A stretch of 40,058 nt of DNA from a virus (Duplodnaviria; Heunggongvirae; Uroviricota; Caudoviricetes): IMG/VR virus record IMGVR_UViG_3300028456_000007; one strand, given 5' to 3'. Both the position numbers and the translations under genes were made by a program. The notes under the pieces were generated by a model that had not been told where the DNA came from, ran no database searches, and saw nothing but the letters and a program-made list of their open reading frames with translations. Positions within the stretch are counted from its first letter, which is position 1; each line of letters starts with the position of its first letter. Below are positions 4,725 through 8,246 of the stretch, piece by piece.

Positions 4725-5087
4725 TTAATGACCTGCTGCGCGGAGTTTTCCGTCAGGTTCACCGGCAAGAGTCAGTAATTGTCCCTGGTCTTCCTGCAGA
4801 ATAGTCAGGCGACCACCGCGATTGACATACATCGGCGTTTCGGTGGTGTCTTCTTCGGAAATTTTCCCGCGGTTAGTTGGGCGAACATATGAGAGTTTGT
4901 GTTTGATTTTCACACGGTTCTCATCAAACGGTTCGATTTCCAGATTGAGTGAGACCTTCCCTTTGGTTTTCGTGTTCATCACACCGGAAGCGACTTCACT
5001 GAGAACTGCGCCAATTTTGGTTTCAAATACGCCGCCGTCCAGCTCCCCGATAAATGCCTGCACATCAGTACTGCGTTCGCTAGCCAT
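4725..5087 (-). CDS. hypothetical early-left protein (YfdP-like), first gene downstream of pL
   Basis: ORF track 4725..5273, but GAGGAG SD precedes internal ATG 5087-5085 (MASERSTD...), giving 120 aa; upstream extension overlaps operators. Confidence 0.5.
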   Translation of the reverse strand: MASERSTDVQAFIGELDGGVFETKIGAVLSEVASGVMNTKTKGKVSLNLEIEPFDENRVKIKHKLSYVRPTNRGKISEEDTTETPMYVNRGGRLTILQEDQGQLLTLAGEPDGKLRAAGH

Positions 5088-5428
5088 TTTGCTGCTCCTC
5101 ATCATATCGACCCTGCAAGGTCGGTTGGTTTCTCCACAAAACAGAGAAGAACACCTGCGGTGGCAGCCGCCCGGATGGATTGGGTTATGAGCCCGTCGTC
5201 CGGTGATGCTCTTCTCTGTTTTGTAAAAAGAGCGGTACCAGCCGGAAGCAAGTGTACAAACTGGTACCGCCAAAGCAGTGGCTGTTGTGGTGACCGGTGC
5301 TGATCTCCGGCTTGCGGTTATTTCAGACTCTCACGGGCGTTTAATTGCCCCGCCGAACAGCTCTTTTCCGCAATAGCTGCAATGTCTTTCGCGCATCAGC
5401 CTGCGCCTTCACCACAACTCTAAAAACA

Positions 5429-5482
5429 AATGTAGGATATCCAACATGTGGGTGTCAAGAGTTTATGTTGGTTATCCTACAT
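5429..5482 (-). promoter_or_regulatory. pL-like promoter with two operator sites (OL)
   Basis: reverse-strand TTGACA (5458..5453) - 18 bp - TACATT (5434..5429); operators ATGTAGGATATCCAACAT (5430..5447) and ATGTTGGTTATCCTACAT (5465..5482). Confidence 0.5.
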
Positions 5483-5504
5483 AAAAAGATAGGCTCATAA
5501 AAAA

Positions 5505-5523
5505 AACCGGGGATACCCCGGTT
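5505..5523 (-). terminator. rho-independent terminator downstream of repressor gene (bidirectional)
   Basis: 8-bp stem AACCGGGG/CCCCGGTT with 3-nt loop; A8 run upstream and T-run downstream on forward strand (U-run on reverse). Confidence 0.6.
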
Positions 5524-5545
5524 TTGCGATAGTGAGGAAGATGTG

Positions 5546-6199
5546 TCAAAAATCCATTATTACTTGTTTGACAAGACCAACTATTCTGCAGTTCTCACCG
5601 CATTCAATAGTTTTATAGTTAGGATTTAGTGGGACGAGATACCTGTTCGGCCAGTCCTCAACAAATTTTTTGAGTGTCGCTTCTTGCCCACCATTGATAT
5701 GGGCAACAACGATTTTTCCGTTAATACACTCTGTATCAATAATATCTGGCTCTACGATAACGATAGAACCTTCTGGTATCGATGGTGAGCCGAGGGGATT
5801 GGTCATTGAATCACCACGGACCCGTAGTGCAAATGCCATTTCTGATACAAGGGCGGTAGTATAAACCCACTCTTCAGCATCTTCTTTCCTGACACCAGGC
5901 TCCGTCATTGTCCATGAACCCGCCTGAACCCACGAGATGAGGGGGACTTTTTTAACTGCGAATATTTCAGGTTTTAGATTTATCTTTGGTTCAGGCGAGC
6001 CTTTTCCGCTAACAAGCCACAGAGGATCGCATTTAAGTGCGTTGGCTAGGGCTTGAAGGTTGGCTCCATTTGGTTGGTAGTCGTCCTTTTCCCATCCAGT
6101 AACCGTGACACGGTTCACACCAGTCAAATCAGCCAGTGCTTGTTGTGTCAGGTTCAGTTCTTTTCGCCTTTGGCGAATACGATCACTCATGTTCATCAT
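5546..6199 (-). CDS. CI-like phage repressor (N-terminal HTH, C-terminal LexA/S24 peptidase-like autocleavage domain)
   Basis: HTH segment LTQQALADLTGVNRVTVTGWE; C-terminal VRGDSM ... KIVVAHINGGQEATLKKF typical of S24 family; start ambiguous among ATGs 6199/6196/6190 (ORF track 6223). Confidence 0.85.
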   Translation of the reverse strand: MMNMSDRIRQRRKELNLTQQALADLTGVNRVTVTGWEKDDYQPNGANLQALANALKCDPLWLVSGKGSPEPKINLKPEIFAVKKVPLISWVQAGSWTMTEPGVRKEDAEEWVYTTALVSEMAFALRVRGDSMTNPLGSPSIPEGSIVIVEPDIIDTECINGKIVVAHINGGQEATLKKFVEDWPNRYLVPLNPNYKTIECGENCRIVGLVKQVIMDF

Positions 6200-6263
6200 G
6201 TAGGCAATCCTACCACATGCCAATGTAGGATTCTTGACATTGACATGTTGGATATCCTACATT
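6198..6263 (+). promoter_or_regulatory. OR operator cluster with PR-like promoter
   Basis: three sites with palindromic core GT(A/T)GGATATCC(A/T)AC: 6200..6213, 6225..6238 (half-site), 6247..6260; TTGACA 6234..6239 - 18 bp - TACATT 6258..6263; cro ATG at 6295. Confidence 0.55.
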
Positions 6264-6294
6264 TCTGCTTAACGTAATTTAACGGGAGACAGAA

Positions 6295-6492
6295 ATGCGG
6301 AAATCCGACGTGATTAATTATTTCGGCGGAGTTTGTAAAACCGCCGAAGCCCTAGGTATTAAGCATCCGTCTGTTTCAGAGTGGCCTGAGATTATTCCTG
6401 AAGGCCGAGCGTACCAGTTAGAAAAAATTACTAACGGGAAACTGAAAGTTGACGTGTCTTTATATCAAAAGACTAACAGTGCTGCGGCATAA
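6295..6492 (+). CDS. Cro-like small DNA-binding regulator
   Basis: 65-aa ORF divergent from repressor across operators; GGGAGA SD. Confidence 0.6.
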   Translation: MRKSDVINYFGGVCKTAEALGIKHPSVSEWPEIIPEGRAYQLEKITNGKLKVDVSLYQKTNSAAA

Positions 6493-6519
6493 AAACACCA
6501 CAGAAATGAGGAATTAACC

Positions 6520-7098
6520 GTGGGTAAAGAACCTGAATGGAAAGTTGATAAACAACCAGCATGGCTGGTGGCAGCAATACGAAGAACGATTGCTGATTTA
6601 CCTCATGGCTATGAGGAAGCAGCAGAAATTCTTGGTTTGTATAAATCTGATGATATCACCCCAGCAAAAGATCAATTGCATAACAGACTGCGTAGCGGTG
6701 GGGATCAAATTTTTCCACTTGAGTGGGCCATGGTTTTACAGGATGCCAGTGGTACCAGGCATGTAACAGATGCAATAGCCCGTCGTAGTAATGGGGTGTT
6801 TGTGCCGCTGGTGGTCATTGATGACATTGACAATGGTGACATTAATCAGCGGCTGATGGAGTCAATAGAATGGATTGGCAAGCATTCCCAGTACTTACGC
6901 AAGGCAACTGCTGATGGAGTTATTGACCAGGCTGAGCGTGAGCAAATCGAAGAGAACAGCTACCAAGTAATGGCGAAGTGGCAGGAGCATTTAACACTGT
7001 TATTTCGTGTTTTTTGTGCGCCGGAAAAGAGTAACGCCCGCGAGTGTGCAGCTCCGGGCGTCGTGGCGTTTTGTGTCTGTGGAGAAACTAACGCATGA
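6520..7098 (+). CDS. hypothetical early-right protein (possibly CII-like regulator)
   Basis: 192-aa ORF directly after cro; family assignment uncertain. Confidence 0.35.
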   Translation: MGKEPEWKVDKQPAWLVAAIRRTIADLPHGYEEAAEILGLYKSDDITPAKDQLHNRLRSGGDQIFPLEWAMVLQDASGTRHVTDAIARRSNGVFVPLVVIDDIDNGDINQRLMESIEWIGKHSQYLRKATADGVIDQAEREQIEENSYQVMAKWQEHLTLLFRVFCAPEKSNARECAAPGVVAFCVCGETNA

Positions 7099-8246
7099 AC
7101 AGTTTAACGGCAAATAACCGTTTGTCGCAACAGCTGGTGGTCAGCGTCGCTGAACACCTGTTGTTACGGCATGAATGCAGATTACCAAATCACCTGGCTG
7201 TAAGTAACCACAGAGAACTTTACCTGACTGTGGGGGGCGAGTTGTGCAGGAACTTAACCGCTGGTTTCGTGACGGAAGAGGGCTTTATGTCCATGTTATT
7301 CGTTGGGAGCCAGAAACACAGCGCGTTATCTATCTTCGCAAAGACTACCCGCATGAGTGCTTTAGTCCTTTGTGGAAATTCAGGCGTGATTTTGTTGAGT
7401 GTGAAGGACCACCAGCACATTGATTCTGCCATTCCGGGACGTTACACTGTTCAGGCACCTTATAAAGCGGGTGCCGGGCGTGGAAACCCGGAATTCACCA
7501 AAGCGCACAACCGCGCTCTTGCGGTTTTTTTGTGTCATGAGCAGCATTACGCCCAAATTATGGTGGGGCGTGCAGGGCCAACTTCGGTTGGGCCGGGTTC
7601 TTTGGTGACCGGTATTTCCACCCCTGTACGTCTCACCACCAATAAGGTCGTGGAAAGCCTTGGTGGTGAGTTATTTAAAATCACCAAAGAGGCTGCCATC
7701 ATGGCTACGATCCCAACCCTCACTCAACCTGAAATTGCCATCGTTGATGGTCAGGCTGTTACTTCATCCCTGGCTGTTGCCAACTTCTTCTCCAAACGTC
7801 ATGACGATGTACTGAAAAAGATCCGCACGCTTGAATGCTCCGCATCATTCACTGCCCGCAATTTTTCGGTGAGTGATTACACCGATTGCACAGGCCGCAA
7901 ACTACCTTGCTATCAAATAACCCGCGACGGCTTTGCGTTTCTTGCTATGGGTTTCACGGGTAAACGTGCTGCCCAGTTCAAAGAGGCATACATCAATGCC
8001 TTTAACCAGATGGAGAAACAGCTTTCAAGGCCCGCTGTACCGAGCGACGTTGCACATAACGCCAGCGTTCTCTGTTCCTACATTTCATCAATTCATCAGG
8101 TCTGGCTGCAGCAGCTTTATCCTATGTTGGCAAAAGCCGAATCTCCGCTGGCTGTTAGCTTATATGACTATATTAATGATGCTTCGGCGCTGGCCTGCCT
8201 CATAAATTTGTCGCTGAACCCTTCAGAGGTAAGGGGGCGCAAATGA
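7095..8246 (+). CDS. Rha-family phage regulatory protein (Rha-like domain in C-terminal half; alternative start ATG 7701)
   Basis: ATGA coupling to upstream gene at 7095; Rha-like segment IAIVDGQAVTSSLAVANFF...YQITRDGFAFLAMGFTGKRA; AAGAGG SD before ATG 7701; no in-frame stop between 7095 and 8246. Confidence 0.5.
   Translation: MNSLTANNRLSQQLVVSVAEHLLLRHECRLPNHLAVSNHRELYLTVGGELCRNLTAGFVTEEGFMSMLFVGSQKHSALSIFAKTTRMSALVLCGNSGVILLSVKDHQHIDSAIPGRYTVQAPYKAGAGRGNPEFTKAHNRALAVFLCHEQHYAQIMVGRAGPTSVGPGSLVTGISTPVRLTTNKVVESLGGELFKITKEAAIMATIPTLTQPEIAIVDGQAVTSSLAVANFFSKRHDDVLKKIRTLECSASFTARNFSVSDYTDCTGRKLPCYQITRDGFAFLAMGFTGKRAAQFKEAYINAFNQMEKQLSRPAVPSDVAHNASVLCSYISSIHQVWLQQLYPMLAKAESPLAVSLYDYINDASALACLINLSLNPSEVRGRK

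What the first reader, a model, noticed from the sequence alone, without database searches (positions are those of the whole stretch)
5429..6263. Immunity region with matched pL and pR architecture and palindromic operators
Both sides of the repressor gene carry TTGACA - 18 bp - TACATT promoters overlapped by operators with core GT(A/T)GGATATCC(A/T)AC: two sites at OL and three at OR with centre spacings of 25 and 22 bp. A strong hairpin plus U-run terminator (5505..5523) sits between the repressor stop and OL, an unusually compact layout. The operator sequence defines this phage's immunity specificity.
Basis: seen in the sequence. Interest (0 to 1): 0.45.

Follow-up and report, generated by a model that had tools for sequence, protein, structure and literature searches.

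The report
P22-type prophage immunity switch
This is an ordinary, intact lysis/lysogeny control region of an E. coli lambdoid prophage, built like that of phage P22 but with a different operator sequence; the one surprise is that a few bases between the operators change far more often than silent sites.

Summary
A 217-aa CI/C2-type repressor gene (6199..5546, minus strand) lies between two outward promoters, each TTGACA-18-TACATT. Both promoters are overlapped by 18-bp palindromic sites with consensus ATGTAGGAT|ATCCTACAT. There are two sites at OL (35 bp apart) and three at OR (25 and 22 bp apart). OR2 is a conserved half-site fused to the pR -35 hexamer. A hairpin with a U8 run terminates cI just before OL.

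A matrix trained only on sites from other organisms ranks these five sites as the top five in the 40-kb window. The geometry holds in relatives whose repressors are only 49-86% identical. The operator type follows the recognition helix (GVNRVTVTGWE), not the C-terminal domain.

The closest known system is P22 immC. It shares the 18-bp operator with a 4-bp centre, the 35-bp OL1-OL2 spacing and the pL and pRM register. It differs at operator positions 3 and 6.

The layout is not unusually compact, because P22 is tighter. The specificity is not peculiar to this phage.

Verdict: a new member of a known kind, of low-to-moderate interest.

One unexplained extra: three 5-7-bp gaps between the elements plus one adjacent base (18 positions) show about 69-fold more recurrent substitution per site than the rest of the cassette.

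The parts
5429..5458 (-). pL: -35 TTGACA (5458..5453), 18-nt spacer, -10 TACATT (5434..5429); predicted start near 5422
   Evidence: The register is the same as the annotated P22 pL, where the -10 is one flanking nt plus the outer 5 nt of OL1. TTGAC-N-TACATT is conserved in relatives.
5430..5447 (.). OL1 operator ATGTAGGATATCCAACAT; covers the pL spacer and -10
   Evidence: Scores 28.6 bits with the independently trained matrix.
5465..5482 (.). OL2 operator ATGTTGGTTATCCTACAT; upstream of the pL -35, 35 bp from OL1
   Evidence: 26.8 bits. The 35-36 bp spacing is conserved in 7 diverged loci. By my reading of the P22 sequence within its annotated OL range, the P22 OL1-OL2 spacing is also 35 bp.
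5495..5525 (-). Intrinsic terminator ending cI transcripts: stem CCGGGG/CCCCGG extended by A-U pairs, 3-nt loop, U8 run
   Evidence: -17.5 kcal/mol, z -3.4. A hairpin plus T-run with a different sequence sits at the same place in mEp390, YeP1, 733R5, phi12.2, L090, L091 and L094. It is absent in L092 and L093.
5546..6199 (-). cI/C2-type repressor, 217 aa (start ATG 6199, stop codon 5548..5546). N-terminal HTH with recognition helix NRVTVTG; C-terminal S24 autopeptidase
   Evidence: Pfam HTH_3 1e-15 and Peptidase_S24 4e-25. 44% identity to P22 C2. C-terminal domain resembles lambda cI, E 1e-22. A93-G94, S131 and K177 are invariant in 34 homologues. The start codon overlapping OR3 is present in every diverged relative inspected (the set was anchored on this motif, so it does not test that point). 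In L094 it is the only in-frame ATG near the start.
6198..6215 (.). OR3 operator (minus-strand reading TGGTAGGATTGCCTACAT). Overlaps the cI ATG by 2 nt and contains the pRM -10
   Evidence: 21.5 bits. The 18-mer is identical in mEp390, whose repressor is 60% identical. Its centre is at -7.5 from the ATG in all 7 relatives.
6207..6235 (-). Inferred pRM: extended -10 TGG-TAGGAT (6215..6207), weak -35 AAGAAT (6235..6230), start about 6201-6199. The cI mRNA would be leaderless or nearly so
   Evidence: Inference. The register matches the pRM annotated in the P22 record: -10 at OR3 positions 4-9, -35 at OR2 positions 6-11, transcript start 4 nt before the ATG. TGGTAGGAT is conserved in at least 80% of 49 distinct OR regions. 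The scan's alternative, TTGGCA-17-CATGAT at 6223..6195, is not conserved in relatives.
6223..6240 (.). OR2: weak operator. The outer half ATGTAGGAT is conserved; the inner half is the pR -35 hexamer
   Evidence: Scores 12.4 bits. A half-site in the same position is present in all relatives.
6245..6262 (.). OR1 operator ATGTTGGATATCCTACAT; covers the pR spacer and -10
   Evidence: 28.6 bits. Its centre is at -54.5 from the cI ATG in 6 of 7 relatives.
6234..6263 (+). pR: -35 TTGACA (6234-6239), 18-nt spacer, -10 TACATT (6258-6263); predicted start near 6270
   Evidence: The TGTCAAG block is conserved in 49 distinct OR regions.
6295..6492 (+). cro, 65 aa, P22-Cro fold family; Shine-Dalgarno GGGAG at 6284-6288
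   Evidence: Pfam P22_Cro 8e-22. 47% identity to P22 Cro. PDB 1rzs, E 7e-12.
6520..7098 (+). CII-like activator (CP76 / phrog_101). Most of it travels with the cassette
   Evidence: Homology to mEp460, which has a different immunity, breaks at 5418/5419 and resumes at 7012.
5448..5452 (.). Hypervariable gap between the pL -35 and OL1
   Evidence: pi 0.159 against 0.0107 at 203 four-fold degenerate sites. 6-10 parsimony steps per site at 5449-5451.
6216..6222 (.). Hypervariable gap between OR3 and OR2 (inside the inferred pRM spacer)
   Evidence: pi 0.102. Position 6222 needs 14 steps. Replicated in metagenome contigs.
6240..6244 (.). Hypervariable gap between the pR -35 and OR1. The window carries the minority allele TTGAC, which creates the tandem TTGACATTGACA
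   Evidence: pi 0.180. Position 6244 needs 13 steps and 6243 needs 8.

Best explanation
Window 5419-7011 is the primary immunity (immC) cassette of a lambdoid E. coli prophage, built on the P22 plan.

Inferred mechanism in the lysogen:
- Dimers of the 217-aa repressor bind 18-bp two-fold symmetric operators (half-site ATGT[A/T]GGAT around a 4-bp A/T-rich centre) through a P22-C2-like helix-turn-helix.
- OL1 and OR1 cover the spacer and -10 of the twin promoters pL and pR and shut off the early operons.
- OR2 has only one good half-site, because its other half is the pR -35. It is probably filled cooperatively from OR1, 22 bp away.
- OL2 lies 35 bp from OL1, which is the 25-bp spacing plus one helical turn. 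It probably pairs with OL1 in the same way.
- The repressor gene is transcribed leftward from pRM, an extended -10 promoter (TGGTAGGAT) embedded in OR3. The mRNA would start at or 2 nt before the ATG, which overlaps OR3. High repressor levels would therefore shut off pRM.
- The hairpin-U8 terminator stops cI transcripts 16 nt before OL2, so maintenance transcription does not run into the pL operon.
- SOS-activated RecA would trigger self-cleavage at Ala93-Gly94 (Ser131/Lys177 dyad). That frees pR and pL, and the P22-type Cro then takes over the same sites.

Shown by sequence and comparison: the sites, their geometry, the protein domains, the covariation and the terminator structure.

Inferred only: binding, cooperativity, the pRM start point and the order of site occupancy.
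For: - Sites and promoters.
- The independently trained matrix ranks the five sites as the top five in 40 kb.
- OR1 at -54.5 and OR3 at -7.5 from the cI ATG, and OL2-OL1 at 35 bp, in 7 loci whose repressors are 49-86% identical. The footprint across 49 distinct OR regions keeps the operators and hexamers and little else.
- The exact 18-mer occurs in 102 of 2.9 million viral contigs. Of the 80 read, 77 have a repressor with helix GVNRVT(V/L)TGWE within about 110 bp, and 3 are chance hits inside ORFs.
- Covariation: helix SRVSVTK goes with GGTAAC...GGTACA sites, helix SPSAVTQ with AAGTAAGTATACTTACAT, and P22's SNVAISQ with ATTTAAGATATCTTAAAT, all at the same positions (PMC5175364).
- A chimera (P0112/L094) whose N-terminal domain is 67% identical to the window's and whose C-terminal domain is 73% identical to P22's carries window-type operators.
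- Domains and catalytic residues. Cro.
- Terminator. It is structurally conserved with different sequences in relatives.
- No other site in the window scores above 5.7 bits, so the predicted regulon is OL plus OR only.
- The same cassette, at least 99% identical, is present in phages deposited as isolates (Lys8385Vzw, vB_EcoM-720R4, SKA5, Stx2c phages) and in 140 of 5426 complete E. coli genomes.
Against: - No binding, footprint or transcript-start data exist for this operator type in the literature searched.
- The promoter matches alone are no better than chance.
- OR2 alone is within chance range.
- Two candidate pRM promoters exist, and the choice rests on conservation and on the P22 record's annotation.
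- The 18-nt spacers are suboptimal for sigma-70.
- There is no third OL site, so lambda-style OL3-OR3 looping cannot be assumed.
- The terminator is missing in two relatives (L092, L093), so it is not essential to the design.
Confidence: 0.85

Rival explanations
1. OR has only two true operators, OR1 and OR3, 47 bp apart. The 'OR2' half-site is a by-product of the overlapping pR -35 and pRM upstream sequences and does not bind repressor.
For: OR2 has 5 mismatches in the 14-bp core and scores 12.4 bits, within the range of the best chance hit in a 40-kb scan. OL also has only two sites.
Against: The CCTACAT-type half-site is kept at the same position (centre -32.5 from the cI ATG) in relatives where the surrounding gaps have diverged completely. 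The 22 and 25 bp spacings match P22's 23 and 25 bp, where three sites are annotated.
Confidence: 0.12
2. The repeats are simply duplicated promoter sequence (pL is a copy of pR), or they are sites for Cro or a host factor rather than operators for the S24 repressor.
For: pL and pR share a 40-nt inverted repeat. The -10 hexamer TACATT is part of the repeat.
Against: OL2 and OR3 are not parts of the pL/pR copy, yet they have the same dyad. The palindrome type follows the repressor's recognition helix, not its C-terminal domain, across 77 of 80 contigs and in a domain chimera. Cro helices differ between loci that share the operator type.
Confidence: 0.04
3. The cassette is a decayed remnant in a cryptic prophage and no longer works as a switch.
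For: Fragments of dead genes lie immediately left of pL: a phrog_3651 fragment at 5160-5303 and an ORF at 5345-5500 truncated at the cassette junction.
Against: cI, cro and the cII-like gene are full length. The cI protein is identical to a cluster of 270 member sequences. The cassette is at least 99% identical in phage records deposited as isolated or induced phages. Operators show less diversity than silent sites, pi 0.002-0.009 against 0.0107, which indicates ongoing purifying selection.
Confidence: 0.05

Closest known systems
Salmonella phage P22 immC (c2 repressor, cro, OR1-3, OL1-3, pL, pR, pRM)
   Same: - Repressor 44% identical overall, with the same HTH fold family. Cro 47% identical.
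- 18-bp operators with a 4-bp A/T centre. The P22 consensus ATTTAAGATATCTTAAAT (PMC5175364) and this one, ATGTAGGATATCCTACAT, agree at 14 of 18 positions.
- OR spacings 23/25 in P22 against 22/25 here. OL1-OL2 is 35 bp in both.
- The pL -10 is made of one flanking nt plus the outer 5 nt of OL1 in both.
- The pRM -10 falls at OR3 positions 4-9 and the -35 at OR2 positions 6-11 in both. OR3 abuts or overlaps the repressor ATG in both.
- Asn46, which reads the non-contacted centre in P22 (PMC4267663), is conserved.
   Different: - Operator positions 3 (T to G) and 6 (A to G) differ in each half-site. P22 repressor binds a site changed at position 3 (to C in the published test) only non-specifically (PMC4267663), so the two are very probably heteroimmune.
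- The recognition helix is NRVTVTG rather than SNVAISQ.
- There are only two OL sites; a canonical terminator sits where P22 has OL3.
- pR is a copy of pL, with OR1 over the spacer and -10 as in lambda. In P22, OR1 lies over the -10 and the start point.
- No gene-24/nutL antiterminator follows pL.
- The cII-like gene is of the CP76 type rather than P22 c1.
Phage lambda immunity region (cI, cro, OR, OL, pRM)
   Same: - The C-terminal domain is homologous to lambda cI (E 8e-25 full length; 1e-22 for the C-terminal domain).
- OR is tripartite between divergent cI and cro.
- OR1 lies over the pR spacer and -10, and OR2 at the -35.
- pL and pR are matched.
- The cI mRNA from pRM is leaderless or nearly so (inferred here; established for lambda from general knowledge).
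   Different: - Operators are 17 bp with a different sequence.
- The N-terminal domain is not detectably related in sequence beyond the HTH class.
- rexA and rexB lie between cI and OL.
- There are three OL sites, which support OL-OR looping.
Sequenced but uncharacterised phages with the same or sister cassettes: Lys8385Vzw, Stx2c_EH0430/EH0474, vB_EcoM-720R4, SKA5 (same cassette); mEp390 and Yersinia YeP1 (sister cassettes)
   Same: - The first group matches at 99.3-99.5% DNA identity over 5300-6500.
- mEp390 (repressor 60% identical) has the identical recognition helix. YeP1 (64%) differs by one residue (GVSRVTVTGWE). Both have the same operator geometry, and the mEp390 OR3 is the identical 18-mer.
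   Different: - In those records the gene is annotated only as 'LexA family' or 'cI'. No operators or promoters are annotated.
- mEp390 and YeP1 half-sites drift to GTAAGAT and GTCAGAT, so cross-immunity with this phage is uncertain.

Membership tests
Lambdoid immC region (CI/C2-type switch) | Repressor with an N-terminal HTH and a C-terminal LexA-like S24 autopeptidase, with an Ala-Gly cleavage site and a Ser/Lys dyad | tested here: met
   Pfam HTH_3 and Peptidase_S24. Aligns to lambda cI and P22 C2. A93-G94, S131 and K177 are invariant in 34 homologues.
Lambdoid immC region (CI/C2-type switch) | Divergently transcribed cro gene across a short intergenic region | tested here: met
   cro at 6295-6492 (+), P22_Cro 8e-22. 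95 bp separate the cI ATG from the cro ATG.
Lambdoid immC region (CI/C2-type switch) | Three related dyad-symmetric operators at OR that overlap pR and pRM | tested here: met
   OR1, OR2 and OR3 at 6245, 6223 and 6198. OR2 is a half-site. The positions are conserved in relatives.
Lambdoid immC region (CI/C2-type switch) | Operators of the same type overlapping pL on the other side of the repressor gene | tested here: met
   OL1 and OL2 at 5430 and 5465; pL at 5458..5429. There are two sites rather than three.
Lambdoid immC region (CI/C2-type switch) | Repressor binds the operators, represses pL and pR, and confers superinfection immunity | not testable with these tools
   There is only indirect support: helix/operator covariation and co-occurrence.
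P22 C2 repressor / operator family | N-terminal domain homologous to the P22 C2 DNA-binding domain | tested here: met
   PDB 1adr, 3jxb and 2r1j at E about 1e-13 over residues 1-63. N-terminal domain identity 44%.
P22 C2 repressor / operator family | 18-bp operator with two 7-bp contacted halves and a 4-bp non-contacted A/T-rich centre | tested here: met
   All strong sites are 18 bp, with centres ATAT, ATAT, TTAT and CAAT. The definition comes from PMC4267663 and PMC5175364.
P22 C2 repressor / operator family | P22 immunity specificity (operator ATTTAAG...CTTAAAT; helix SNVAISQ) | tested here: not met
   The half-site here is ATGTAGG and the helix is NRVTVTG. It has the same architecture but is not the same immunity group.
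Rho-independent terminator | G+C-rich hairpin followed directly by a U-run on the transcribed strand, downstream of a stop codon | tested here: met
   It starts 20 nt after the cI stop codon.
Leaderless or near-leaderless cI mRNA from pRM (lambda and P22 style) | pRM transcript starts at, or within a few nt of, the repressor start codon | tested here: inconclusive
   The conserved TGGTAGGAT ends 7 nt before the ATG at 6199. The P22 record places the RM 5' end 4 nt before the ATG. There are no transcript data.

The most novel reading that the evidence does not exclude
The few bases of the switch not covered by an operator or a promoter hexamer act as evolutionary tuning knobs. These are 5448-5452, 6216-6222, 6240-6244 and 6264. 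Lineages carrying an otherwise identical cassette have changed them repeatedly and independently: at least 75 inferred events in 18 bp against 95 in the other 1562 bp. This would reflect selection to reset pL, pR and pRM strength, and hence lysogen stability or induction threshold, without touching immunity specificity. The alternative is a local mutational hot spot created by the repressor- or polymerase-bound state of the DNA. Either would be a little-documented mode of evolution for a phage switch.
Probability: 0.35. Interest if true: 0.6.

Novelty: new member of a known kind. Interest (0 to 1): 0.3.

Why it matters
The cassette is common. It occurs in 140 of 5426 complete E. coli genomes and includes Stx2c-converting phages. 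A defined operator, promoter set and cassette boundary (5419-7011) therefore allow homo- and hetero-immunity to be predicted among these prophages, and allow reporters or induction-threshold experiments to be designed.

Aligning helix to half-site across the family (NRVTVTG with GTAGG, SRVSVTK with GTAAC/GTACC, SPSAVTQ with GTAAGT, SNVAISQ with TTAAG) gives a small natural recognition code for the well-studied P22 C2 scaffold.

The hypervariable gaps, if they reflect selection, would show where a bistable switch can be retuned in nature without breaking it.

Tried and rejected
These were useless for operator comparison. I used phage records, the look-up of encoding contigs and pattern scans instead.
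- The promoter scan proposed a pRM of TTGGCA-17-CATGAT (6223..6195). I rejected it because neither hexamer is conserved in mEp390, YeP1 or L090-L094. TGGTAGGAT is conserved and matches the P22 register.
- Start codons: the mechanical ORF starts at TTG 6223. The stretch 'GRIAY' is simply OR3 read in frame, and longer gene calls in Pantoea and Providencia are probably miscalls. ATG 6190 is possible but less conserved than ATG 6199.
- Rfam at permissive threshold over 5000-6600 gave nothing meaningful.
- Literature searches for the core sequence, for mEp390 and for Stx2c immunity found no characterisation. Degnan et al. 2007 on wild lambda-immunity phages, which I recall from memory, could not be retrieved.
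- I looked for a pRE or CII site (TTGC-N6-TTGC) around cro and the cII-like gene and found none.
- Gene conversion between pL and pR, or import from diverged sister cassettes, does not explain the gap alleles. The allele sets do not overlap.
- Linkage of gap alleles to the flanking mosaic context was tested and not found.
- A P22 immC control (19 copies) showed no hot spots, but it has only 18 variable sites and is underpowered.
Full report
**1. What is there**

Window 5200-6600 contains a minus-strand ORF for a repressor and, on each side of it, a short non-coding stretch carrying related palindromes.

The consensus scan finds two identical promoter-like sites pointing outward. TTGACA-18-TACATT lies on the + strand at 6234..6263 and on the - strand at 5458..5429. 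The scan also finds a strong terminator-like hairpin on the - strand at 5525..5503. The two promoters are the arms of a 40-nt inverted repeat that is 85% complementary.

All four lie in these two stretches, with 0-2 mismatches.

Read as 18-mers, the sites are:
- OL1 5430-5447
- OL2 5465-5482
- OR3 6198-6215
- OR2 6223-6240
- OR1 6245-6262

Centre spacings are 35 bp at OL and 25 and 22 bp at OR. OR2 matches in one half only; its other half is the pR -35 hexamer.

**2. Is it more than chance?**

A 10/12 promoter match is not rare. The window has 5, and random sequence of the same composition gives about 6. The promoters are therefore supported by position and conservation, not by the match itself.

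For the operators I built a weight matrix from 28 sites in seven other organisms' loci, excluding the window, and scanned all 40 kb. The five sites score 28.6, 28.6, 26.8, 21.5 and 12.4 bits. The next best hit scores 5.7. The best hit in random windows averages 9.8 +/- 3.1. OR2 alone is thus within chance range, but it sits exactly where relatives have the same half-site.

**3. The proteins**

The repressor (6199..5546, 217 aa) has HTH_3 and Peptidase_S24 domains.
- It is 44% identical to P22 C2 over its whole length.
- Its N-terminal domain matches the solved P22 C2 DNA-binding domain.
- Its C-terminal domain matches lambda cI.
- Ala93-Gly94, Ser131 and Lys177 are invariant in 34 homologues, so RecA-stimulated self-cleavage is expected.

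The divergent gene at 6295-6492 is a P22-type Cro, 47% identical, with a match to PDB 1rzs. A CP76/phrog_101 CII-like gene follows at 6520-7098.

**4. Comparative evidence**

The same cassette, at 99.3-99.5% identity, occurs in phages Lys8385Vzw, three Stx2c-converting phages, vB_EcoM-720R4 and SKA5. It is also in 140 of 5426 complete E. coli genomes. In those records it is annotated only as 'LexA family' or 'cI', with no operators marked.

More distant repressors, 49-86% identical, come from Raoultella, Pantoea, Salmonella, Providencia, Morganella, coliphage mEp390 and Yersinia phage YeP1. They keep the whole plan:
- OR1 centred at -54.5 and OR3 at -7.5 from the repressor ATG.
- A half-site OR2 fused to TGTCAA.
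- OL2-OL1 spacing of 35 (once 36) bp.
- TTGACA-18-TACATT at pL.

In most of them a hairpin plus T-run, with a different sequence, lies between the stop codon and OL2.

Across 49 distinct OR regions, the invariant or nearly invariant columns are the operators and hexamers.

The bare 18-mer ATGTWGGATATCCWAC AT (no space) occurs in 102 of 2.9 million viral contigs. Of the 80 I read:
- 76 have a repressor with helix GVNRVT(V/L)TGWE within about 110 bp.
- One more has the gene cut by the contig end.
- Three are single chance hits inside unrelated ORFs.

**5. Covariation of helix and operator**

Relatives with a different recognition helix have different palindromes at the same positions:
- SRVSVTK goes with GGTAAC-N-GGTACA (733R5, ST13-OXA48phi12.2).
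- SPSAVTQ goes with AAGTAAGTATACTTACAT (L095).
- P22's SNVAISQ goes with ATTTAAGATATCTTAAAT (PMC5175364).

A natural chimera (P0112/L094) has an N-terminal domain 67% identical to the window's and a C-terminal domain 73% identical to P22's. It carries window-type operators. The operator type therefore travels with the N-terminal domain. That is what one expects if these are the repressor's binding sites.

**6. Comparison with P22**

From the annotated P22 record:
- P22's OR spacings are 23 and 25 bp.
- Its OL1-OL2 spacing is 35 bp, with the pL -35 between them.
- Its pL -10 is one flanking nt plus the outer 5 nt of OL1.
- Its pRM -10 occupies OR3 positions 4-9 and its -35 occupies OR2 positions 6-11.
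- OR3 abuts the c2 ATG.

Each of these registers is the same in the window.

In the window, OR3 positions 1-9 on the cI strand read TGG-TAGGAT. That is an extended -10 motif, conserved in at least 80% of relatives, and it ends 7 nt before the ATG at 6199. I therefore place pRM there and predict a leaderless or 2-nt-leader cI mRNA. The scan's other candidate (TTGGCA-17-CATGAT) is not conserved.

Differences from P22:
- Operator positions 3 and 6 differ. P22 repressor binds a site changed at position 3 (to C in the published test) only non-specifically, PMC4267663.
- There is no OL3; a canonical terminator sits in its place.
- pR is a copy of pL, with OR1 over the spacer and -10 as in lambda.
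- No antiterminator gene or nut site follows pL.
- The cII-like gene is of the CP76 type.

By analogy with P22, where the four central non-contacted bases tune affinity and G/C weakens binding (PMC4267663), OR1 and OL1 (centre ATAT) should be the strongest sites. OR3 (centre CAAT, which contains a G-C pair) should be weaker. This is inference.

**7.

'Unusually compact' is not supported. P22 has 38 bp between the c2 stop codon and OL3. The window has 63 bp, and relatives have the same layout.

'Defines this phage's immunity specificity' needs qualifying. The helix and operator type are shared by a broad enterobacterial family. Whether mEp390 or YeP1, with half-sites GTAAGAT and GTCAGAT, are cross-immune is open.

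**8. Cassette boundaries**

Against mEp460, which has a different immunity but the same flanks, homology ends at 5418 and resumes at 7012. Against vB_EcoM-720R4, homology runs 5333-7108. The exchangeable unit is therefore 5419-7011: pL/OL, terminator, cI, OR, cro and most of the cII-like gene. The left joint falls 3-4 bp beyond the predicted pL start.

**9. An unexpected pattern**

Among 54-74 near-identical copies (cI protein 99.5-100% identical), variation is concentrated in three tiny gaps:
- 5448-5452, between the pL -35 and OL1
- 6216-6222, between OR3 and OR2
- 6240-6244, between the pR -35 and OR1
- plus the single position 6264

Nucleotide diversity in the gaps is 0.16, 0.10 and 0.18. 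It is 0.0107 at 203 four-fold degenerate sites in the same copies, and 0.002-0.009 inside the operators.

On a tree built from the other sites, these 18 positions need 75 substitution steps. The remaining 1562 positions need 95. That is a 69-fold difference per site, with individual sites needing 10-14 steps. Because the tree was built from the non-gap sites, those sites fit it partly by construction.

An independent set of 15 metagenome contigs shows the same pattern: 0.14-0.24 in the gaps against 0.0038 at four-fold sites. Sister sub-families show variation at the same spots. The alleles are not tied to the flanking backbone. They are not shared with sister cassettes or exchanged between pL and pR. 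One other gap, 5459-5464, is invariant.

The window carries minority alleles at all three gaps (TGTGGG / CCA / TTGAC).

I cannot decide between two explanations. One is recurrent selection on promoter strength or repressor cooperativity; these are the only promoter positions free of operator constraint. The other is a local mutational hot spot. A P22 control was underpowered.

**10. Verdict**

The finding is a correct reading of an ordinary, intact P22-type immunity region with a previously uncharacterised operator specificity. It is a new member of a known kind. The hypervariable inter-operator gaps are the only feature that a specialist might find surprising.

Noticed in passing
window 5448-5452, 6216-6222, 6240-6244, 6264: Three 5-7-bp gaps between operator and promoter elements, plus position 6264, are 10-60 times more polymorphic than four-fold degenerate sites among near-identical copies of the cassette. 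They are massively homoplasious: 75 steps in 18 bp against 95 in 1562 bp. The pattern was replicated in metagenome contigs. The cause is unknown.
   Followed up: partly
window 7455-7531 and 7556-7643 (+), inside the mechanical ORF 7095-8246: Rfam gathering-level hits to isrK (67 bits) and C4 antisense RNA (83.6 bits), followed by an Ash/Rha antirepressor-like ORF (about 7716-8246; phrog_821, phrog_373). This is a second, P1 immI- or Gifsy-1 isrK-like immunity/antirepressor module inside the early-right operon. The 383-aa ORF is probably a false fusion.
   Followed up: partly
window 5080-5423 (- strand, leader of the pL transcript): There is no gene for about 335 nt downstream of pL. The RNA is strongly structured (z -4.7). 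It has a 13-bp hairpin followed by CUCUUUUU (about 5232-5271, terminator-like) and a 25-bp-stem hairpin (about 5130-5229, z -6.65). The segment is 98-100% identical in about 70 phage records with various immunities, so it belongs to the yfdP-yfdQ-yfdR early-left module.
   Followed up: partly
window 5160-5303 (+), 5300-5421, 5345-5500 (+): Dead-gene debris lies next to the cassette joint. There is a 47-aa fragment of phrog_3651. There is a 120-bp stretch that in P1-like phages (RCS47) is the 3' end of the plp lipoprotein gene. There is also an ORF that is a full 122-aa gene in mEp460 but is cut here at the 5418/5419 junction.
   Followed up: partly
L094 (Morganella contig) 1501-2145; protein P0112: A natural chimeric repressor: its N-terminal domain is 67% identical to the window's and its C-terminal domain is 73% identical to P22 C2. 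It has window-type operators and geometry. This is a clean example of domain-level mosaicism within a repressor gene.
   Followed up: yes
window 5436-5441 and 6251-6256: The centres of OL1 and OR1 contain GATATC, the EcoRV site. A host with that restriction system would cut this phage exactly at its two strongest operators.
   Followed up: no
window 5499-5506: The length of the A/T run of the cI terminator varies (7 or 8) among otherwise identical cassette copies.
   Followed up: no
L091 and L093 (Pantoea and Providencia loci); window 6199-6223: Longer repressor gene calls (232 and 223 aa; window ORF from TTG 6223) read OR3 in frame as 'GRIAY'. These are probably start-codon miscalls that have propagated in databases.
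   Followed up: partly
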